From the IMG/VR virus record IMGVR_UViG_3300014846_000039: a DNA stretch of 7,722 nucleotides. One strand, given 5' to 3'. Shown here piece by piece: positions 1 to 6,873 of the stretch (position 1 is the stretch's first letter; every line of letters starts with the position of its first letter). The translations under genes and the position numbers were made by a program. This DNA comes from a virus (taxonomy: Duplodnaviria; Heunggongvirae; Uroviricota; Caudoviricetes). Under the pieces are notes generated by a model that worked only from the letters and a program-made list of their open reading frames with translations, did not search any database and was not told the DNA's origin.

Positions 1-426
1 ACGCTGGCGGTGGTAACCGCAACGGGGCGGCTGGCACGCGTTAATCAGAACGGTAAATTTCGTTACTGCATGCCGGGGGGTAATTTACCAGCAGATCCGA
101 AAACCGCGCCGGTAACGGAAAATGATGGTAAGGCCTTTCCTCAGCCAGCAGGTGCTGCGTTACCAGTCCGGGAAGCCGCAACACAGGAAGAAATTAAAAC
201 AGAAACTGTGGCGGACATTGTGCAGCCGTTGCCATCGTTTACCGAAACGCAAGCAGATGAGCTGATTTTTCCGTCCCTTCGCAGGGCAAACCTGGCGCTG
301 CGCAGGGCGAAAAGTGATGTTCAGAAGTGGGAGCGAGTCTGCGCCGCGCTGCGGGAGCTGAACAAGCACCGGGATATTGTTCGACAGATTACTGATTCTT
401 CCCGCCGTGTTGTATCGGAAAAGTGA
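1..426 (+). CDS. Hypothetical phage protein, 3' portion only (5' end lies upstream of the window)
   Basis: Frame 1 is open from nt 1 to TGA at 424-426 with no in-window upstream stop; the GTG at 10 in the ORF track is probably an internal codon. No motif recognised. Followed by a well-placed RBS and start of the next gene. Confidence 0.5.
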
Positions 427-441
427 TTGCCGGAGGCGCTT

Positions 442-867
442 ATGGCAAAAGTATTTACACAAGAAGAGCGGGAAAAAATTAAAGGGCAGGTTGTTGAACT
501 TGTACGTCTGAGCGGTCGCGAGACGTTGCGGCAACTGGAAGCCAAGACAGGTGCGACAAGATATCTGATGAGTGTTCTCGCCAGAGAGCTGGTTGCCAGT
601 GGCGATGTATACAACTCTGGTTACGGGTTATTCCCGTCTGAACAGGCGCGTAAGGACTGGCAAAATGCTCGCAAAAAACTCTCAAGGGCAAAGGTGAAGA
701 AACCTGCAGTGGTTGATCCGGACCTTATCTGGTCGTTACCAGACGGCGAAATACGCCGCTACGACAGGCGCCTGAACATAATCTGTCGCGAGTGCCGGAA
801 GAGCGAAGCTATGCAGCGTGTACTGGCATTTTATCAAGGAAATGTTAGGTATTTTAGACGTTACTAG
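442..867 (+). CDS. Hypothetical prophage protein (about 141 aa)
   Basis: ATG at 442 preceded by GGAGG at 432-436 (5-nt spacing); ORF track lists 427..867 from a TTG, but the ATG with this RBS is the more plausible start. Stop TAG 865-867. No family recognised. Confidence 0.55.
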   Translation: MAKVFTQEEREKIKGQVVELVRLSGRETLRQLEAKTGATRYLMSVLARELVASGDVYNSGYGLFPSEQARKDWQNARKKLSRAKVKKPAVVDPDLIWSLPDGEIRRYDRRLNIICRECRKSEAMQRVLAFYQGNVRYFRRY

Positions 868-1020
868 ATTAAAGAGCATTAGTTCAGATGTGAATTGACA
901 TTTTCATGGCGCAGGGTAGAGCCAGCGTGGTTGTCCGCTTTGCGTCAAAACCAGATATTACCAGATTTAGACATATATTCCCGATAGCCCTGCTCTGATG
1001 CTACACTCTGTGCTATTTTC

Positions 1021-1707
1021 ATGACCCCAATAAAAATATTTATGACTATTGCTGATTTCAAACGGCCTAAATTGGAGCTCCCAAACGGGGCAAACAAACT
1101 ACTACTGCACTCTTGCTGTGCTCCATGTTCCGGTGAAGTGATGGAGGCGCTTCAGGCCTCGGGAATCGACTACACCATCTTTTTCTACAACCCGAACATT
1201 CATCCTCAGAAAGAGTATTTAATTCGTAAGGATGAAAATATTCGCTTTGCTGAACAACACGGCGTGCCGTTTATCGATGCTGATTACGACACCGACAACT
1301 GGTTTGAACGTGCCAAAGGAATGGAATGGGAGCCTGAGAGGGGGATCCGTTGTACCATGTGTTTTGACATGCGTTTTGAGCGGACAGCGTTGTACGCTGC
1401 TGAAAATGGTTTCAGTGTGATCAGCAGTTCACTGGGCATTTCACGCTGGAAAAATATGCAGCAGGTTAACGAGTGTGGGCGGCGAGCTGTTGCGCATTAT
1501 CCGGGTATGGTGTACTGGGATTATAACTGGCGCAAGCAGGGCGGCTCGTCCCGTATGATTGAAATCAGCAAGCGCGAAAAATTCTATCAGCAGGAATATT
1601 GTGGCTGTGTGTATTCTCTGCGCGATACCAATCTACACCGCAAATCTCAGGGACGCCCTCTTATCAAAATTGGCCAACTCCACTACGGAAAAGAAGAGAA
1701 GGAGTGA
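1021..1707 (+). CDS. queH: Epoxyqueuosine reductase QueH-like protein (DUF208 family)
   Basis: 228-aa ORF with the N-terminal [11 protein letters not shown] cysteine motif and further conserved Cys (CTMCFD, CGC) that I associate with DUF208/QueH. No obvious Shine-Dalgarno before 1021; in-frame alternative start ATG at 1042. Assignment by motif memory only. Confidence 0.6.
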
Positions 1708-1945
1708 TTTTATGGATCACCTTTCTGATTGATTTCATATTGGCGAGGTGACGTGAGTTAAGTAGAATGGCTGCGGGGGGCTTGAGGCTATCTGTCTCAG
1801 GCATGAACACTGAAAGGCAGATAGAGAAAAGCCCCAGTTAACATTTCGCGTCCTGCAAGACGCTTAACATTAATCTGAGGCCCAATCTATGTCTCACAAA
1901 TGTAGGTTAGCCTCTTACGTGCCGAAAGGCAAGGGGAAGCAGGCT

Positions 1946-2209
1946 ATGAAGCAGCAAAAGGCGATGTTAATCGCCCTGATCGTCATCTGTTTAACCGTCA
2001 TTGTGACGGCACTGGTAACGAGGAAAGACCTCTGCGAGGTACGAATCCGAACCGGCCAGACGGAGGTCGCTGTCTTCACAGCTTTGCCAGGCATCCTCAA
2101 CGCACCCGCACTTAACCCGCTTCGGCGGGTTTTTGCATTAGTCTGGTTGACAAAAATAGAAAAATGCGAAAATATGTGGTTTACGAATTCTAAAAAAAGC
2201 GAAACTTGA
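1946..2209 (+). CDS. hokD: Hok/Gef-family membrane toxin, HokD(RelF)-like for the first 46 codons, with replaced and extended 3' end (possible pseudogene or variant)
   Basis: ATG 1946 with SD AAGGGGA at 1931-1937. Residues 1-46 (MKQQKAMLIALIVICLTVIVTALVTRKDLCEVRIRTGQTEVAVFTA) match HokD/RelF as I remember it; canonical Hok proteins are about 50 aa, but here the frame runs on to TGA 2207-2209 (87 aa) through a terminator hairpin and a promoter-like sequence. The ORF-track start at 1889 is in frame but upstream of the SD-supported ATG. Confidence 0.65.
   Translation: MKQQKAMLIALIVICLTVIVTALVTRKDLCEVRIRTGQTEVAVFTALPGILNAPALNPLRRVFALVWLTKIEKCENMWFTNSKKSET
2115..2134 (+). repeat. Direct repeat copy 1 (acccgcttcggcgggttttt), identical to 3950-3969
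   Basis: Exact 20-nt identity read directly from the sequence. Confidence 0.85.
2116..2134 (+). terminator. Rho-independent terminator-like hairpin (5-bp GC stem cccgc/gcggg, TTCG tetraloop, T5 run)
   Basis: Stem 2116-2120 pairs with 2125-2129, loop ttcg 2121-2124, T-run 2130-2134; lies inside the extended hok frame and just upstream of the cassette promoter-like element. Confidence 0.55.
2147..2176 (+). promoter_or_regulatory. Putative sigma70 promoter for the cassette (perfect -35 TTGACA, weak AT-rich -10)
   Basis: TTGACA at 2147-2152; about 17 nt downstream an AT-rich -10 candidate (aaatat 2170-2175); 35 nt before ATG 2211. The -10 is poor, so low confidence. Confidence 0.3.
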
Positions 2210-2210
2210 A

Positions 2211-2861
2211 ATGAATGAAAATCAGTTAGCTCCTTGTTGGGAATTTCAACCTTATCTTGCTGAAAACTATGTTCGCCACTTGTTGGCGGAGATCGCTAAC
2301 GTACTTGAGCAGCTGTACTATCATAAGCACGCATTAGACAGCAACTGGTCTGAAGGTGTAAGGGCTTATGATTGGGTCAGAAATCATCTTATTCAAAATG
2401 AAGATGCAATTCCTGGCCTTGAGATGATTTCCAAGGGGTTGGACTATGTAGTTGCTTTAAATAAAGTTCCGCTACAATTTACCAAAGATTGCATTAATAA
2501 CCCCAAAAAGAAACATCGTCTGCGTCGAAATAAAGTAGAGTATGAGCAGCTCTCATTGTTTGGTGATGTTGAGGCTGAGCAAGATATTACATGGCGAGTC
2601 ATAGCTGAGCCTTTTTTATCCGAAGAGGGCGATGGTGAATTAGAGTCCACACTGCCTCGTTGGGAGGTAGCTCTTGTTGGATTTAATACTTATGGTGCTC
2701 AGATTAGTATAGTTTCTCATCAATCTACAGCATCGATGCCGCTTATGCCTCTTGATTATAACACACTCCCTGACGAAGCGGAGATTAATAAGGTGCCTCT
2801 TCGTCGGCGTACGAAGGATAAAGATTTGGATGTGAGCAGTGATGGAACATCAGGTGAATAA
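2211..2861 (+). CDS. Hypothetical protein, 216 aa, no recognisable family; first gene of the inserted cassette
   Basis: ATG 2211, TAA 2859-2861; overlaps the downstream gene by 20 nt (operon-like). AT-rich codon usage (hand-counted samples about 33-38% G+C versus about 50% in flanking genes). No clear SD. Acidic protein with two basic patches (NPKKKHRLRRNK, VPLRRRTKDKD); no TM segment or catalytic motif recognised. Confidence 0.6.
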   Translation: MNENQLAPCWEFQPYLAENYVRHLLAEIANVLEQLYYHKHALDSNWSEGVRAYDWVRNHLIQNEDAIPGLEMISKGLDYVVALNKVPLQFTKDCINNPKKKHRLRRNKVEYEQLSLFGDVEAEQDITWRVIAEPFLSEEGDGELESTLPRWEVALVGFNTYGAQISIVSHQSTASMPLMPLDYNTLPDEAEINKVPLRRRTKDKDLDVSSDGTSGE

Positions 2862-3945
2862 CTTCACTGAGTATCGGGGTGATAAGCTCAAACTAGCGAG
2901 AATGGCTGTTGGGCTTTCTTGTGAAGAGTTAGCCGAAAAAATTGGCAAGACAAAGCAATTCGTTAGCAAACTGGAGAAGGGGTGCAGGCCATCGGAGCAA
3001 TGTCTTGAGTTAATATCTTCAGCGCTTATGATTAAGTCCAGTTTTCTTTTTACTGAACGAAAATACGCTCTGGAAAGTGATGTCTGCCATTTTCGGAGTA
3101 AGAAGTCCAGGACTCAAACGCTGACTAATAGTGTATTGGCCAGGGCTGAGATTCTTAATATTATAATTTCTGCTGTTGAAGGTGAAATCGAATTTCCTGA
3201 CGTTAACATACCGGAGCACCCAGGGGCTGAATTACTTACTCCGAATGATATTGAGCGAGTGGCAGAAGATTGTCGCCGTGCCTGGAATTTAGGTCTTGGC
3301 CCTATATCATCAATGGTTAAATTGGCGGAGAGTTTAGGGGTAATCGTTGCGCATGTTACGGGAGTCGATGATCGTGTTGATGCTTTTACTGTTCACAATA
3401 ACAGGCCTGTTATCATCAGGAACAATGTTAAAAAAAGCATATGTAGATTTCGCTCTGATTTAGGTCATGAATTAGGGCATTTAGTAATGCATGAGGGCAT
3501 AACGACAGGTGATAAACTTACGGAATCACAAGCCGATCACTTTTCGAGCGCCTTATTAGTTCCCAGGTTATCTTTCATTAAAGAATTTCCACGAATACGA
3601 GGTAAGCAATTCGACTGGAATGCTCTGGTTGAATTTAAACTTAGATGGAAAATCAGCCTTAAAATGTGTATTTATCGAGCCAGCGCATTAGGCTTATTGA
3701 CCCAGGAACAGGCAAGAACTGGCTATATGCATCTTAATTCCAGAGGGTATACGAGAGTTGAACCTGGTGATGAACTTTTGCGCCCTGAAGAACCCGGCAT
3801 GCTGGCCGAGGCGATTGAAATGCTGGATGATGCAACCTGGCTAAGAATTCTTATGAAAACTGGCTTGAGCCAAGATTTAATTCGTGAGTTGTTCTCCATC
3901 AACAGACCTATTACAAATCCAAGAAATATTTTCCAGATTGTTTGA
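2842..3945 (+). CDS. HTH_XRE DNA-binding domain fused to ImmA/IrrE-family (COG2856, M78-like) zinc metallopeptidase, with a C-terminal extension of about 110 aa
   Basis: N-terminal XRE-type HTH (LKLARMAVGLSCEELAEKIGKTKQFVSKLEKG); HEXXH zinc motif HELGH encoded at 3466-3480; downstream third-ligand motif typical of ImmA/IrrE (ESQADHFSSALLVP). ORF track starts at GTG 2839; the adjacent ATG at 2842 is preferred. Stop TGA 3943-3945, followed immediately by a terminator. Confidence 0.8.
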   Translation: MEHQVNNFTEYRGDKLKLARMAVGLSCEELAEKIGKTKQFVSKLEKGCRPSEQCLELISSALMIKSSFLFTERKYALESDVCHFRSKKSRTQTLTNSVLARAEILNIIISAVEGEIEFPDVNIPEHPGAELLTPNDIERVAEDCRRAWNLGLGPISSMVKLAESLGVIVAHVTGVDDRVDAFTVHNNRPVIIRNNVKKSICRFRSDLGHELGHLVMHEGITTGDKLTESQADHFSSALLVPRLSFIKEFPRIRGKQFDWNALVEFKLRWKISLKMCIYRASALGLLTQEQARTGYMHLNSRGYTRVEPGDELLRPEEPGMLAEAIEMLDDATWLRILMKTGLSQDLIRELFSINRPITNPRNIFQIV

Positions 3946-3949
3946 GTAT

Positions 3950-3969
3950 ACCCGCTTCGGCGGGTTTTT
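3950..3969 (+). repeat. Direct repeat copy 2 (acccgcttcggcgggttttt), identical to 2115-2134
   Basis: Exact 20-nt identity read directly from the sequence. Confidence 0.85.
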
Positions 3970-3970
3970 T
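3951..3970 (+). terminator. Rho-independent terminator (cccgc / TTCG loop / gcggg, T6 run) ending the cassette
   Basis: Stem 3951-3955 / 3960-3964, loop 3956-3959, T-run 3965-3970; 5 nt after the stop codon of the peptidase gene. Confidence 0.6.
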
Positions 3971-3989
3971 GTTTTTATTTTCAACGTGT

Positions 3990-4019
3990 TTGAAGTTTTG
4001 GACGGTGCCAGAATAGAAT
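3990..4019 (+). promoter_or_regulatory. Putative promoter (TTGAAG, 18-nt spacer, TAGAAT) upstream of the small ORFs
   Basis: -35-like TTGAAG 3990-3995 and -10-like TAGAAT 4014-4019; sequence-only guess. Confidence 0.25.
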
Positions 4020-4054
4020 CAAAAATACTTAAGTAGCGCGCAGGGAGAAGAGGG

Positions 4055-4276
4055 ATGGACCCCGAACAGGGGGAGTGCTATTTATCTGGAAGGATTCTGT
4101 TGATGAAAATCGAAGAATTACGTGAAATTTTTAGTGAAGATGGCCTCTATGCTGTGCGCGTTGAGAATGGGGGTATTACCTACACAGCGTTAATTCCTGA
4201 TGATCATGTAGTGTTATCTGTTGAGGCATTCATTGAATACTTGGAAAGACTCGGTTTCAAGGTAGTTCGGGAATAA
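4055..4276 (+). CDS. Hypothetical small phage protein (73 aa; 57 aa if started at ATG 4103)
   Basis: ATG 4055 preceded by purine-rich GGGAGAAGAGGG (4043-4054); alternative ATG 4103 preceded by GGAAGGA (4088-4094). Stop TAA 4274-4276. No family recognised. Confidence 0.5.
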   Translation: MDPEQGECYLSGRILLMKIEELREIFSEDGLYAVRVENGGITYTALIPDDHVVLSVEAFIEYLERLGFKVVRE

Positions 4277-4335
4277 GTTATAATACGTGAGCCAGCCTGA
4301 ACAACTGGCACCTGCTGCGCCAGCAGAGACAACCG

Positions 4336-4608
4336 ATGGCGCACAATACCAAACACCACAATTCTGATGCCGACCCTGCCAGCAGACACGGACGGCGCTC
4401 TCACGCATTCAAATATGACTGGTACCAGCATGACCAATGCACTGAAGAACAGGCCGAGTGGCTGATTCAGAATTACCGCAGACGTGGATACCAGTTTCAG
4501 AAAGGCCTCAGTCCTGACTTCCGACACTGGATAATTTCCGTCAGGCTCCCTTATTCCGAACGCCCGCCGCGTCCGTCCCGCACATATCAGCAACGCATCT
4601 GGAGGTAA
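4336..4608 (+). CDS. Hypothetical small basic protein (90 aa)
   Basis: ORF from the track; no clear SD; its stop TAA 4606-4608 is embedded in the RBS/start of the next gene, suggesting coupling. Positionally analogous to the small gene (rem) that I recall between hokD and ydfU in the K-12 Qin prophage, but the sequence was not recognised. Confidence 0.4.
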   Translation: MAHNTKHHNSDADPASRHGRRSHAFKYDWYQHDQCTEEQAEWLIQNYRRRGYQFQKGLSPDFRHWIISVRLPYSERPPRPSRTYQQRIWR

Positions 4609-4609
4609 C

Positions 4610-5668
4610 GTGCGGGTATTACTTCGACCTGTTCTGGTACCGGAACTCAGTCTGGTTATCGTTAAGCCAGGCCGTGAATCAATGTCAGTATTCCATAACG
4701 GCAGAATATTGGTGGAACCGGAACCCAAAAACATGCGCAGTCTTCCGTCCGGCGTCGTTGCAGCCGTTAGCCAGCCGTTGGCTGAGGATAAAACATTACT
4801 ACCATTTTTCAGCGATGAGCGGGTAATTCGTGCAGCAGGTGGTGCAGGTGCACTGTCTGACTGGTTATTACGTCACGTGAAATCCTGCCAGTGGCCACAC
4901 GGCGATTATCATCACAGCGAAACAGTCATTCACCGTTACGGTACCGGCGCGATGGTGTTGTGCTGGCACTGTGACAACCAGCTGCGCAACCAGACATCAG
5001 AATCACTCGATCAACTTGCTCAGCAGAATCTGGTTGCCTGGATGATTGACGTCATCCGTCACGCAATAAGCGGTACGCAGGAGAGGGAGTTATCGCTGGC
5101 CGAATTATCCTGGTGGGCGGCCTGCAATCAGGTGGTGGATGCACTACCTGAGGCAGTAGCGCGTCGTTCGCTGGGATTACCGGTGGAAACAATCCGCTCC
5201 GTATACCGTGAGAGTGACATCGTACCGGGAGAACAGACAGCCATCAGCATACTGAAGCAGCGCACAAAAAATATTGCGCTTCCACTTCACGTCCACCAGC
5301 AACAGCCCCCACCCCAGGAAAAGACGTTAGTAAGCATCGCCGTTGATCCGGAGTCTCCGGCTCAGTACCTCCAGCGCCAGAAACCACAACGGGAAGAGAT
5401 GCCTGTATACACGCGCTGGGTAAAAACGCAGAAATGCATGACGTGCGGTAATCAGGCAGATGATCCGCATCACATCATTGGTCATGGACTGGGAGGGATG
5501 GGAACAAAGGCTGACGATTTGTTTGTTATTCCGTTGTGCCGTAAATGCCATAACAAACTACATGCCGGAGTAAAAGATTTTGAAGAAAAACACGGCAGTC
5601 AGCTGTTGTTGCTGATTCGTTTTTTAATGCACGCGAGAAATTCGGGTGTTCTGAAGTGGAAAGCATAA
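4610..5668 (+). CDS. DUF968-family prophage protein (YdfU-like) with C-terminal HNH-like Cys/His motif
   Basis: GTG 4610 preceded by GGAGG 4601-4605; alternative ATG at 4682. C-terminus carries CMTCGNQADDPHHIIGHGLGG...CRKCHNKLH, a Cys/His pattern I associate with DUF968/HNH-like zinc-binding. Stop TAA 5666-5668 directly abuts the rusA ATG. Confidence 0.65.
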   Translation: MRVLLRPVLVPELSLVIVKPGRESMSVFHNGRILVEPEPKNMRSLPSGVVAAVSQPLAEDKTLLPFFSDERVIRAAGGAGALSDWLLRHVKSCQWPHGDYHHSETVIHRYGTGAMVLCWHCDNQLRNQTSESLDQLAQQNLVAWMIDVIRHAISGTQERELSLAELSWWAACNQVVDALPEAVARRSLGLPVETIRSVYRESDIVPGEQTAISILKQRTKNIALPLHVHQQQPPPQEKTLVSIAVDPESPAQYLQRQKPQREEMPVYTRWVKTQKCMTCGNQADDPHHIIGHGLGGMGTKADDLFVIPLCRKCHNKLHAGVKDFEEKHGSQLLLLIRFLMHARNSGVLKWKA

Positions 5669-6049
5669 ATGACCGAACGCATAGAATTTGTTTTGCCTTA
5701 CCCGCCGACGGTGAACACTTACTGGCGACGCCGTGGCAGCACATATTTTGTATCAAAAGCCGGGGAGCGTTATCGCCGGGCAGTGGCGCTTATTGTTCGC
5801 CAGCAGCGGCTGAAATTAAGCCTGTCCGGAAGGTTGGCAATAAAAATTATTGCAGAACCACCGGATAAGCGCCGCCGTGACCCGGACAATATTCTGAAAG
5901 CGCCGCTGGATGCGCTGACGCATGCGGGGTTGCTAATGGACGATGAGCAGTTTGATGAAATCAATATCGTTCGTGCTCAGCCAGTATCTGGTGGACGTCT
6001 GGGGGTGAAGATTTACCCCATAATGCTTGAAGGGCAGGTCAAAAAATGA
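5669..6049 (+). CDS. rusA: Holliday-junction resolvase RusA family
   Basis: 126-aa ORF with RusA-like blocks (LPYPPTVNTYWRR; DKRRRDPDNILKAPLDALTHAGLLMDDEQ; GGRLGV) comparable to E. coli RusA. Stop overlaps the next start (ATGA at 6046-6049). Confidence 0.85.
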   Translation: MTERIEFVLPYPPTVNTYWRRRGSTYFVSKAGERYRRAVALIVRQQRLKLSLSGRLAIKIIAEPPDKRRRDPDNILKAPLDALTHAGLLMDDEQFDEINIVRAQPVSGGRLGVKIYPIMLEGQVKK

Positions 6050-6702
6050 AACTGGAAGATTTACCGAAATACTACTCCCCAAAATCCCCCGGCCTGACTG
6101 ATGCATCGGCCTCAACGTCGAAAGATGCGCTGAGTATCACTGATGTGATGGCCGCGCAGGGCATGACACAGAATCGGGCTGAGATGGGGTTTTCTGCGTT
6201 CCTTGGGAAAATGGGCATTAGTATGAATGACAGAGAGCGGGCAACAGAATTGCTGACAGAATATGCACTCAGTCGGTGTGATCGCGTGGCGGCGTTAAGA
6301 AAACTCCCGGCAGAAATAAAACCGGTAGTGATGCGCATTATGGCTTCGTACGCTTTTGAGGATTATGCCCGCAGCGCAGCGAGTAAAAAGCAGTGCCCTT
6401 GTTGCTATGGGGAAAAATTTATTGAAAGCGTAGTTTTTACAAACAAGGTCCAGTATCCGGATGGTAAGCCGCCGGTATGGGCAAAGTGTACGAAAGGTGT
6501 GTATCCGTCTTACTGGGAAGAATGGAAAAAAAATCGGGAGGTGGTAAAAGTTGCCTGTCCGGAGTGTGGCGGAAAGGGTGAGGTTTCCACCGCCTGTAAG
6601 GATTGCCGTGGGCGTGGTGTCGCCATTCATCGTGAAGAGTCGGTAAAACGTGGTATGCCTGTTATCAGAGACTGCCAGCGTTGTGGTTGGTCGTGGCTGT
6701 GA
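6046..6702 (+). CDS. Late-gene antitermination protein Q family
   Basis: 218-aa ORF immediately after rusA (typical lambdoid order), with Cys-rich zinc-finger-like segments (CPCCYGEKF, CPECGGKGEVSTACKDCRGRG, CQRCGW) and followed by a promoter plus intrinsic terminator, as expected for Q / pR' / tR'. Confidence 0.75.
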   Translation: MKLEDLPKYYSPKSPGLTDASASTSKDALSITDVMAAQGMTQNRAEMGFSAFLGKMGISMNDRERATELLTEYALSRCDRVAALRKLPAEIKPVVMRIMASYAFEDYARSAASKKQCPCCYGEKFIESVVFTNKVQYPDGKPPVWAKCTKGVYPSYWEEWKKNREVVKVACPECGGKGEVSTACKDCRGRGVAIHREESVKRGMPVIRDCQRCGWSWL

Positions 6703-6873
6703 AAGGCTGCCATCAACGGAGGCATTTAATGCCATATGCAAAGTGACGAGTGCTATCACGCTTGATACGTGGAAAAAATCAGTGAAACGCTTTTACGATA
6801 CGTTGGTGGTTCGGTTTGACATTGAAGAGGCATGGGCGGAGCGGCAGTTAAAGAGGGTAACGCGATAGTGTTG

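What the first reader, a model, noticed from the sequence alone, without database searches (positions are those of the whole stretch)
1946..2209. hok toxin gene with its native stop codon missing and the reading frame extended into the cassette junction
The first 46 codons match HokD/RelF as I remember it (51 aa ending YEPEE), but here the sequence after codon 46 differs and the frame stays open for 41 more codons across a terminator hairpin and a promoter-like region, ending 1 nt before the cassette ATG. The toxin is therefore either inactivated by the insertion or expressed as a C-terminally altered variant. The SD and start are intact.
Basis: partly seen in the sequence, partly recalled or inferred. 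Interest (0 to 1): 0.5.

Follow-up and report, generated by a model that had tools for sequence, protein, structure and literature searches.

The report
Prophage hok toxin gene broken by deletion
A small membrane-toxin gene (hokD type) in an E. coli-like prophage has lost 56 bases that carried its last five codons, its stop codon and an RNA hairpin it needs, so it is most likely a dead toxin gene: an ordinary decay event, not caused by the neighbouring defence cassette.

Summary
ORF 1946-2209 encodes 87 aa. Its first 46 residues equal HokD (51 aa, ...AVFTAYEPEE). The frame then stays open for 41 codons to TGA 2207-2209, one base before the cassette ATG at 2211.

The break at codon 46 is not the cassette junction. 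It is a separate 56-bp internal deletion (window 2084|2085). The deletion removes codons 47-51, the TAA stop and the GC-rich 3' stem-loop of the hok mRNA. Positions 2085-2134 are native hok 3' UTR (fbi-like element and terminator). The cassette is a RosmerTA toxin-antitoxin/defence pair that begins after the terminator. It lies behind an annotated 51-aa hokD in each of the four complete genomes whose annotation was read; 231 complete E. coli genomes carry this junction.

The deletion junction was found in none of 5,426 complete E. coli genomes, nor in the phage, viral, metagenome and species-representative collections.

In plasmid R1 hok, stop-codon loss, a C-terminal tag and a weakened 3' stem-loop each abolish toxicity. 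Transcripts ending at the hok terminator here also have no stop codon. The most likely reading is a private, inactivated hok allele in a decaying prophage, whose Q antiterminator is also frameshifted. Interest is low.

The parts
1740..1768 (+). hok promoter-like site (TTGGCG, 17-nt spacer, TAGAAT)
   Evidence: Consensus scan. It lies 7-8 nt upstream of the start of the Rfam leader match. Promoter function is inferred, not shown.
1775..1788 (+). 5' end of hok mRNA (tac element) carrying a private T->GG change (GGGTGCTTGAGG -> GGGGGGCTTGAGG)
   Evidence: Pairwise comparison with the closest genome. No match for this 44-mer in 5,426 genomes. The predicted tac-stem hairpin is stronger (-31.0 vs -27.5 kcal/mol) and the predicted tac/fbi duplex is weaker (-16.7 to -18.9 vs -21.5 kcal/mol).
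1776..1951 (+). hok leader, the region that Sok antisense RNA targets (Rfam RF01794, full-length match); the sok gene itself lies antisense within it and was not delimited
   Evidence: cmscan 116.2 bits against a gathering score of 59, E 1.1e-26, model positions 1-157 of 157. From 1780 to 2084 the sequence is identical to DETEC-S792 (L004) and 118UI (L001), so Sok should be intact.
1889..2209 (+). mok-like ORF in frame with hok (19-aa N-terminal extension), here 106 aa instead of 70 aa
   Evidence: ORF list. The same in-frame architecture appears in 70-aa homologues such as P0020, found on at least 999 contigs.
1946..2209 (+). hok' ORF, 87 aa: HokD residues 1-46 plus a 41-aa out-of-context tail
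2084..2085 (+). Junction of the 56-bp deletion. Missing sequence: ACGAACCTGAGGAGTAAGAGACCCGGCGGGGGAGTAATCTCCCGCCACCTCTGATG, which holds codons 47-51 including the editable Tyr47 codon, the TAA stop and the 3' stem-loop
   Evidence: Alignments A1 and A2 and the pairwise comparison. The deleted segment folds into a 9-bp GC-rich stem-loop, -21.3 kcal/mol. Only 1 nt of microhomology (T) is present at the endpoints.
2095..2107 (+). fbi-like element (CCTCAACGCACCC) that pairs with the mRNA 5' end
   Evidence: The predicted 5'/3' end pairing is present in both the intact relative and the window.
2114..2135 (+). Native hok intrinsic terminator (stem, UUCG loop, T run), now inside the open reading frame
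   Evidence: Terminator scan. Identical in K-12, 118UI and the cassette-free strain 2/0.
2135..3969 (+). RosmerTA cassette (rmrT 2211-2861, rmrA 2839/2842-3945), ending in a second exact copy of the 20-nt terminator (3950-3969)
   Evidence: PADLOC RmrT E 4.6e-25 and RmrA E 6.2e-105. Pfam HTH_3 and Peptidase_M78 in rmrA. 20-nt exact direct repeat. The right junction rejoins the K-12 hokD-rem spacer. This is context, not the cause of the lesion.

Best explanation
[quoted passage not shown] Promoter, tac, Sok target, in-frame mok, hok, fbi and terminator are all present. The toxin gene has been knocked out by a private 56-bp deletion between window 2084 and 2085.

Shown: the deletion removes codons 47-51, the TAA stop and the GC-rich stem-loop between the stop codon and the fbi element. 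The downstream RosmerTA cassette sits after the hok terminator. It is found behind an annotated 51-aa hokD in the four complete genomes whose annotation was read, so it did not cause the break.

Inferred consequences:
1. The protein loses the editable Tyr47 codon (recoded to Cys) and the acidic tail, and gains 41 unrelated residues. In R1 Hok, a 17-aa read-through extension or an 8-aa C-terminal tag abolishes toxicity.
2. The stem-loop that protects the 3' end of the processed, translatable hok mRNA is gone, so that species should be degraded by 3'-5' exonucleases.
3. Transcripts that end at the hok terminator, or are trimmed from it, have no in-frame stop codon. Ribosomes would stall, and the product would be tagged by tmRNA and degraded.

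The net result is an orphan Sok with a dead toxin, in a prophage that is also losing its Q antiterminator.
For: - The 56-bp gap is seen against 118UI, DETEC-S792, strain 2/0 and K-12.
- The window is otherwise identical to DETEC-S792 from 123 to 6325, apart from a T->GG change at 1775-1779.
- 231 genomes carry the hok-cassette junction. hokD is annotated as intact in the rows and loci examined.
- The junction 44-mer has no match in 5,426 complete E. coli genomes, while a control 44-mer matches 4,686 genomes.
- The exact 25-mer junction is absent from genome, viral and metagenome contigs, and the junction 44-mer has no match in phage records.
- Neither the 87-aa nor the 106-aa product is on record.
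- The deleted segment folds as a 9-bp GC stem-loop and forms the 3' terminal hairpin in the truncated-mRNA analogue.
- R1 experiments (PMC9841398): six stop-codon substitutions were recovered as toxicity suppressors, a C-terminal FLAG tag abolishes toxicity, and 19 of 22 3'-UTR suppressors break the terminal stem and eliminate Tr-hok mRNA.
- The Tyr-to-Cys editing site is shared by hokC, hokD and hokE at the position equivalent to the essential Cys46 of HokB (PMC12214031).
- There is no in-frame stop between 1946 and the terminator.
- An independent 128-bp deletion of the hok 3' end lies in front of the same cassette in another draft genome, and there are several other sporadic frameshift or read-through Hok variants. 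Such decay therefore recurs.
- The Q antiterminator is frameshifted in the window.
Against: - Toxicity, mRNA species and tmRNA tagging were not measured. The inactivation argument rests on R1 Hok, which is only about 44% identical to the 51-aa prophage homologue HokW.
- Pfam positions 1-41 of 42 are retained, and the TM helix and Cys30 are intact.
- C-terminally 3xFLAG-tagged HokW is still made and reaches the inner membrane (PMC8621323).
- Overexpressed Hok tolerates many point substitutions.
- Read-through transcripts would give a complete 87-aa product with a stop codon.
- The source reads cannot be inspected, so an assembly error cannot be excluded.
Confidence: 0.8

Rival explanations
1. 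One reading: insertion of the downstream cassette cut off the end of hok, so the codon-46 breakpoint is the insertion junction.
For: The reading frame does run to within one base of the cassette ATG. The cassette is an insertion relative to K-12 and to strain 2/0.
Against: The 50 nt after the breakpoint (2085-2134) are native hok 3' UTR and terminator, identical to cassette-free loci. The same cassette follows an annotated 51-aa hokD in 118UI, DETEC-S792 and the other cassette-bearing rows read; 231 genomes share the junction. The cassette boundary lies at the terminator and is marked by 20-nt direct repeats.
Confidence: 0.02
2. The 87-aa protein, or the 106-aa form read from the mok start, is a functional C-terminally remodelled toxin rather than a dead one.
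For: The SD, the start codon, the TM helix, Cys30 and 41 of 42 Pfam positions are retained. Tagged HokW still inserts into the inner membrane. Hok toxicity under overexpression is robust to alanine substitutions.
Against: R1 read-through (+17 aa) and FLAG-tagged Hok are non-toxic. The editable Tyr47 is lost. The 3' protective stem-loop is lost. Terminated transcripts have no stop codon. The allele is private, with no sign of conservation.
Confidence: 0.1
3. The deletion is a sequencing or assembly artefact, and the real genome has an intact hokD.
For: The window carries two further private small indel-type differences: T->GG in a G run at 1775-1779 and an extra T at 6687. That pattern can indicate an error-prone assembly. 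The deleted segment also contains a very stable GC hairpin.
Against: A clean 56-bp loss with unique flanks and no repeat is not a typical base-calling or collapse error. An independent 128-bp deletion at the same place in another assembly shows that real deletions occur here. The deletion endpoints do not coincide with the base of the hairpin.
Confidence: 0.08

Closest known systems
hokD (relF) of E. coli K-12 Qin prophage and PGAP 'type I toxin-antitoxin system toxin HokD' (WP_000813254.1)
   Same: Residues 1-46 are identical. The 3' UTR fbi-like element and terminator are identical where present.
   Different: K-12 hokD has lost its 5' leader, sok and mok to the relBE rearrangement but keeps the 51-aa ORF. 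The window keeps the full leader but has lost codons 47-51, the stop codon and the 3' stem-loop.
hokW-sokW of Sakai prophage Sp5 (Takada et al. 2021, PMC8621323)
   Same: A 51-aa Hok with a complete hok/sok locus in a lambdoid prophage. The published knockout primers show that the 5' end (GCGGGTGCTTGAGGCTATCTG...) and the 3' stem-loop sequence are of the same type. It is reported to aid lysis and phage release on induction.
   Different: hokW is intact and functional. The window allele lacks the C-terminus, the stop codon and the stem-loop, and its prophage has a frameshifted Q.
hok/sok of plasmid R1, the regulatory paradigm (Le Rhun et al. 2022, PMC9841398)
   Same: tac/fbi end pairing, mok leader ORF, Sok target, 3' processing and a protective terminal stem-loop. 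The lesion here combines two classes of loss-of-function change recovered in that screen: stop-codon loss and loss of the 3' stem.
   Different: Only about 44% protein identity between the 51-aa prophage homologue HokW and R1 Hok. mok is in frame with hok here. The lesion here is a natural 56-bp deletion rather than a point substitution.
Inactivated chromosomal hok loci of laboratory E. coli: hokA, hokC and hokE by IS elements, hokD by rearrangement (as summarised in PMC12214031)
   Same: A naturally disabled hok locus with remnants of its regulatory RNA elements.
   Different: The mechanism here is a small internal deletion, and it is private to this sequence.

Membership tests
Hok/Gef toxin family (Pfam PF01848) | Sequence match to the HOK_GEF profile above the curated threshold | tested here: met
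   76.8 bits against a cut-off of 22; residues 6-46 match profile positions 1-41 of 42.
Hok/Gef toxin family (Pfam PF01848) | Small protein of about 50 aa ending shortly after the periplasmic segment | tested here: not met
   87 aa. Homologues are 51 aa, or 70 aa from the in-frame mok start.
Hok/Gef toxin family (Pfam PF01848) | C-terminal cysteine, encoded in DNA or created by TadA editing of a Tyr codon (HokB position 46, HokD Tyr47) | tested here: not met
   The TAC codon lies in the deleted segment, and residue 47 is now Leu.
[quoted passage not shown] | hok leader with the Sok-complementary region | tested here: met
   Rfam RF01794, 116.2 bits, full length.
[quoted passage not shown] | Overlapping mok leader ORF that delivers ribosomes to hok | tested here: met
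   ATG at 1889 in frame with hok, preceded by GAGG. The same architecture appears in 70-aa homologues. Translational coupling itself was not tested.
[quoted passage not shown] | Long-range 5' tac / 3' fbi end pairing | tested here: met
   Predicted in both the MFE and the centroid structure of the intact relative. It is present in the MFE of the window, but with one mismatch and lower duplex energy.
[quoted passage not shown] | Stable stem-loop forming the 3' end of the processed, translatable mRNA | tested here: not met
   The whole stem-loop lies in the 56-bp deletion.
[quoted passage not shown] | Toxin kills when Sok is absent, and Sok represses it | not testable with these tools
   Needs expression and sok-knockout experiments.
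RosmerTA (the neighbouring cassette) | Adjacent rmrT toxin and rmrA antitoxin (HTH plus Zn-peptidase M78) | tested here: met
   PADLOC RmrT E 4.6e-25 and RmrA E 6.2e-105. Pfam HTH_3 and Peptidase_M78. The genes overlap by 20-23 nt, depending on the rmrA start chosen.

The most novel reading that the evidence does not exclude
The two private changes in the hok transcript may be linked. The T->GG change in the tac element is predicted to strengthen the open tac stem by 3.5 kcal/mol and to weaken the closed tac/fbi pairing by 2.6-4.8 kcal/mol. It could therefore have been an activating mutation that made hok dangerous, with the 56-bp deletion as its naturally selected suppressor.

Alternatively, the read-through ORF now crosses the terminator and stops one base before the rmrT ATG. 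That could put translation of the RosmerTA toxin under hok/Sok control by termination-reinitiation.
Probability: 0.06. Interest if true: 0.4.

Novelty: already known. Interest (0 to 1): 0.13.

Why it matters
It matters little beyond annotation. The ORF should be called a hokD pseudogene (Δ56), not an 87-aa protein or a hok-cassette fusion. The adjacent two genes should be called RosmerTA.

It is a tidy natural example of the loss-of-function classes mapped experimentally in R1 hok: stop-codon loss and loss of the 3' stem-loop. It adds to the evidence that prophage hok loci decay recurrently. If the tac change and the deletion were shown to be an activator-suppressor pair, that would be a modestly interesting natural confirmation of the hok mRNA folding model.

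Tried and rejected
- **Cassette insertion as the cause.** Rejected by alignment.
- **A conserved 87-aa Hok form.** Rejected. The junction is absent from all collections. The exact 87-aa and 106-aa products are not on record.
- **Finding the source genome.** The frameshifted Q product gave nothing. The closest complete genomes are 99.4% identical and all carry the undeleted form.
- **The tac GG variant elsewhere.** One 20-mer hit appeared in a Desulfonatronovibrio MAG (L006), but BLAST shows no further similarity. About one such hit is expected by chance in 596 Gb.
- **A mechanistic signature for the deletion.** There is only 1 nt of microhomology, and the endpoints (RNA positions 310-365) do not sit at the base of the predicted helix, whose pairs join 315-318 to 369-372. 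No clean hairpin excision or repeat-mediated slippage is evident.
- **A sigma-70 promoter between 2135 and 2210.** Only a TTGACA hexamer is present, and nothing reached the scan threshold.
- **Significance of the stop falling 1 nt before the ATG.** The same TTGAAATG sequence is present in all cassette-bearing relatives. The adjacency is a pre-existing accident of that frame.

Full report
**1. What is in the sequence**

The window is the early-right (nin-like) region of a lambdoid prophage. Its genes are:
- DUF977 (442-867)
- QueH (1021-1707)
- a hok/sok locus
- a two-gene cassette (2211-2861 and 2839-3945)
- Rem (4055-4276)
- DUF968 (4610-5668)
- RusA (5669-6049)
- a Q-type antiterminator (from 6046)
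- the start of a DNA methyltransferase

The ORF at 1946-2209 translates to 87 aa. Residues 1-46 are identical to HokD. After codon 46 the frame continues for 41 codons and stops at TGA 2207-2209, one base before the ATG at 2211. Pfam HOK_GEF matches residues 6-46 at 76.8 bits.

**2. Where the break really is**

I aligned the window with three other loci:
- E. coli 118UI (L001), which has intact hokD and the same cassette
- strain 2/0 (L002), which has intact hokD and no cassette
- a K-12 derivative (L003)

The window lacks 56 bp between positions 2084 and 2085. The missing sequence is ACGAACCTGAGGAGTAAGAGACCCGGCGGGGGAGTAATCTCCCGCCACCTCTGATG. This segment holds codons 47-51 (YEPEE), the TAA stop and a GC-rich stem-loop.

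The next 50 nt of the window (2085-2134) are not cassette DNA. They are the native hok 3' UTR, namely the fbi-like element CCTCAACGCACCC and the intrinsic terminator, and they are identical in cassette-free loci.

The cassette begins after the terminator at about 2135. It ends with a second exact 20-nt copy of the terminator at 3950-3969. After that the sequence rejoins the hokD-rem spacer seen in K-12.

The junction of hok with this cassette occurs in 231 of 5,426 complete E. coli genomes. In every row or locus examined, hokD is annotated as the intact 51-aa gene. The cassette insertion therefore did not truncate hok.

**3. How common the deletion is**

- A 44-nt query centred on the junction cannot seed a megablast match unless the deletion is present. 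It has no match in the 5,426 complete genomes.
- A control 44-mer from inside hok matches 4,686 genomes.
- The exact 25-mer junction is absent from the species-representative genomes, the viral contigs and the metagenome contigs, and the junction 44-mer has no match in the phage records.
- Neither the 87-aa product nor the 106-aa ORF from the upstream ATG is on record.

The closest complete genomes (for example DETEC-S792, L004) are 99.4% identical. Between window 123 and 6325 they differ from the window at only two places, both inside the hok transcript: the 56-bp deletion and a T->GG change at 1775-1779 in the 5' tac element. That 5' variant is also unmatched in the complete genomes.

A homologue search showed that Hok relatives are overwhelmingly 51 aa, or 70 aa when read from an in-frame upstream ATG. 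There is a scatter of rare frameshifted or read-through variants.

One of these, P0001, is an independent 128-bp deletion. It fuses codon 33 into the terminator, in front of the same cassette but in a different prophage backbone (L005). Decay of the hok 3' end therefore recurs, but this particular allele is private.

**4. What the locus is**

Rfam's sok model matches 1776-1951 over its full length at 116 bits. A promoter-like site lies just upstream at 1740-1768. An ATG at 1889, preceded by GAGG, opens a mok-like ORF in frame with hok.

Folding the intact relative's transcript predicts the long-range 5'/3' (tac/fbi) pairing that defines hok mRNAs. The deleted stem-loop lies between the stop codon and fbi. 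When the RNA is cut after that stem-loop, it becomes the 3' terminal hairpin, as in the processed Tr-hok mRNA of R1.

This is a complete hok/sok locus of the HokD/HokW type. The published hokW primers carry the same 5' end and the same 3' stem-loop sequences.

**5. Likely consequences (inferred)**

a. *Protein.* In R1 hok, all six recovered stop-codon substitutions, which give a 17-aa extension, were toxicity suppressors. A C-terminal 8-aa FLAG tag also abolishes toxicity (PMC9841398). The deletion here starts at the Tyr47 codon TAC. TadA edits this site to a Cys codon in hokC, hokD and hokE, and it is equivalent to the Cys46 needed for HokB toxicity (PMC12214031; preprint 10.1101/2025.08.07.668861).

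b. *mRNA.* In R1, 19 of 22 3'-UTR suppressors weaken the terminal stem of Tr-hok, and the processed mRNA disappears. Here the whole stem is gone.

c. *Non-stop transcripts.* There is no in-frame stop between 1946 and the terminator at 2114-2135. Transcripts that terminate or are trimmed there are non-stop mRNAs. From established knowledge of trans-translation, these are rescued by tmRNA-SmpB and their products are degraded. Only read-through transcripts could yield the full 87-aa product.

Together these points make a dead toxin with an orphan Sok the most likely state (confidence about 0.8). None of it was measured. The counter-evidence is that the TM helix, Cys30 and 41 of 42 Pfam positions remain, and that C-terminally tagged HokW still reaches the inner membrane.

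**6. Context of decay**

The Q antiterminator is split by an extra T at 6687, giving ORFs of 218 aa and 72 aa against 273 aa in relatives. The best-matching alleles are one base shorter and are annotated as intact. A 44-mer across the site has no match.

The window therefore carries three private lesions. This suggests either a decaying prophage, as is common in Shigella-like or host-restricted lineages, or an indel-prone assembly. I rate the artefact explanation at about 0.08, because a clean 56-bp loss is not a typical sequencing error.

**7. The tac change**

The T->GG change turns GGGUGCUU into GGGGGGCUU. This can pair without a bulge to AAGCCCC.
- The predicted 5' hairpin goes from -27.5 to -31.0 kcal/mol.
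- The predicted tac/fbi duplex goes from -21.5 to between -16.7 and -18.9 kcal/mol.

In the R1 model this would favour the open, translatable fold. The two private events both fall within the roughly 360-nt hok transcript, out of 6.2 kb that is otherwise identical. That is suggestive of selection at this locus, possibly an activating change followed by a suppressing deletion. The order of events and the effect are unknown, so this remains a low-probability speculation.

**8. Comparison and verdict**

The system is known (hok/sok; HokD/HokW), and so is its neighbour. The neighbour is RosmerTA: PADLOC gives RmrT E 4.6e-25 and RmrA E 6.2e-105, and the system is described in Millman et al., 10.1101/2022.05.11.491447. 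Naturally inactivated hok loci are well documented.

The finding is a correct observation with a partly wrong cause. It is best annotated as a hokD pseudogene carrying a 56-bp 3' deletion. Novelty: already known. Interest: low.

Noticed in passing
window 2135-3969 (rmrT 2211-2861, rmrA 2839-3945): The 'cassette' is a RosmerTA toxin-antitoxin/anti-phage defence pair (PADLOC RmrT E 4.6e-25, RmrA E 6.2e-105). It is a 1,835-bp insertion between hok and rem, bracketed by exact 20-nt copies of the hok terminator (2115-2134 and 3950-3969). 231 complete E. coli genomes carry the same junction.
   Followed up: partly
L005 3943-4191 (GCA_008385495.1 contig RDVZ01000056): An independent 128-bp deletion fuses hok codon 33 into the terminator in front of the same RosmerTA cassette, in a different prophage backbone (82-aa product P0001). 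Loss of the hok 3' end next to this cassette has happened at least twice. Whether it is enriched there was not tested.
   Followed up: partly
window 1775-1779: A private T->GG change in the hok mRNA 5' tac element. It is predicted to strengthen the tac stem (-31.0 vs -27.5 kcal/mol) and weaken tac/fbi end pairing. It has no match in 5,426 genomes.
   Followed up: partly
window 6046-6868 (extra T at 6687): The Q-type antitermination gene is frameshifted, giving ORFs of 218 aa and 72 aa instead of one 273-aa protein. The best-matching alleles in complete genomes are one base shorter and intact.
   Followed up: partly
window 1889-1945: The mok-like leader ORF is in frame with hok and adds 19 aa at the N-terminus, unlike the out-of-frame mok I recall for R1. 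The same architecture is seen in 70-aa 'Hok family' proteins found on roughly a thousand contigs or more.
   Followed up: partly
window 1021-1707: An epoxyqueuosine reductase QueH homologue (Pfam E 1.1e-65) is encoded in the prophage early region just upstream of hok/sok. It is conserved in related prophages.
   Followed up: no
window 78-122 and 6326-6737: Dense SNP clusters relative to the closest genomes, next to long stretches of 100% identity. This indicates mosaic recombination tracts typical of lambdoid prophages.
   Followed up: no
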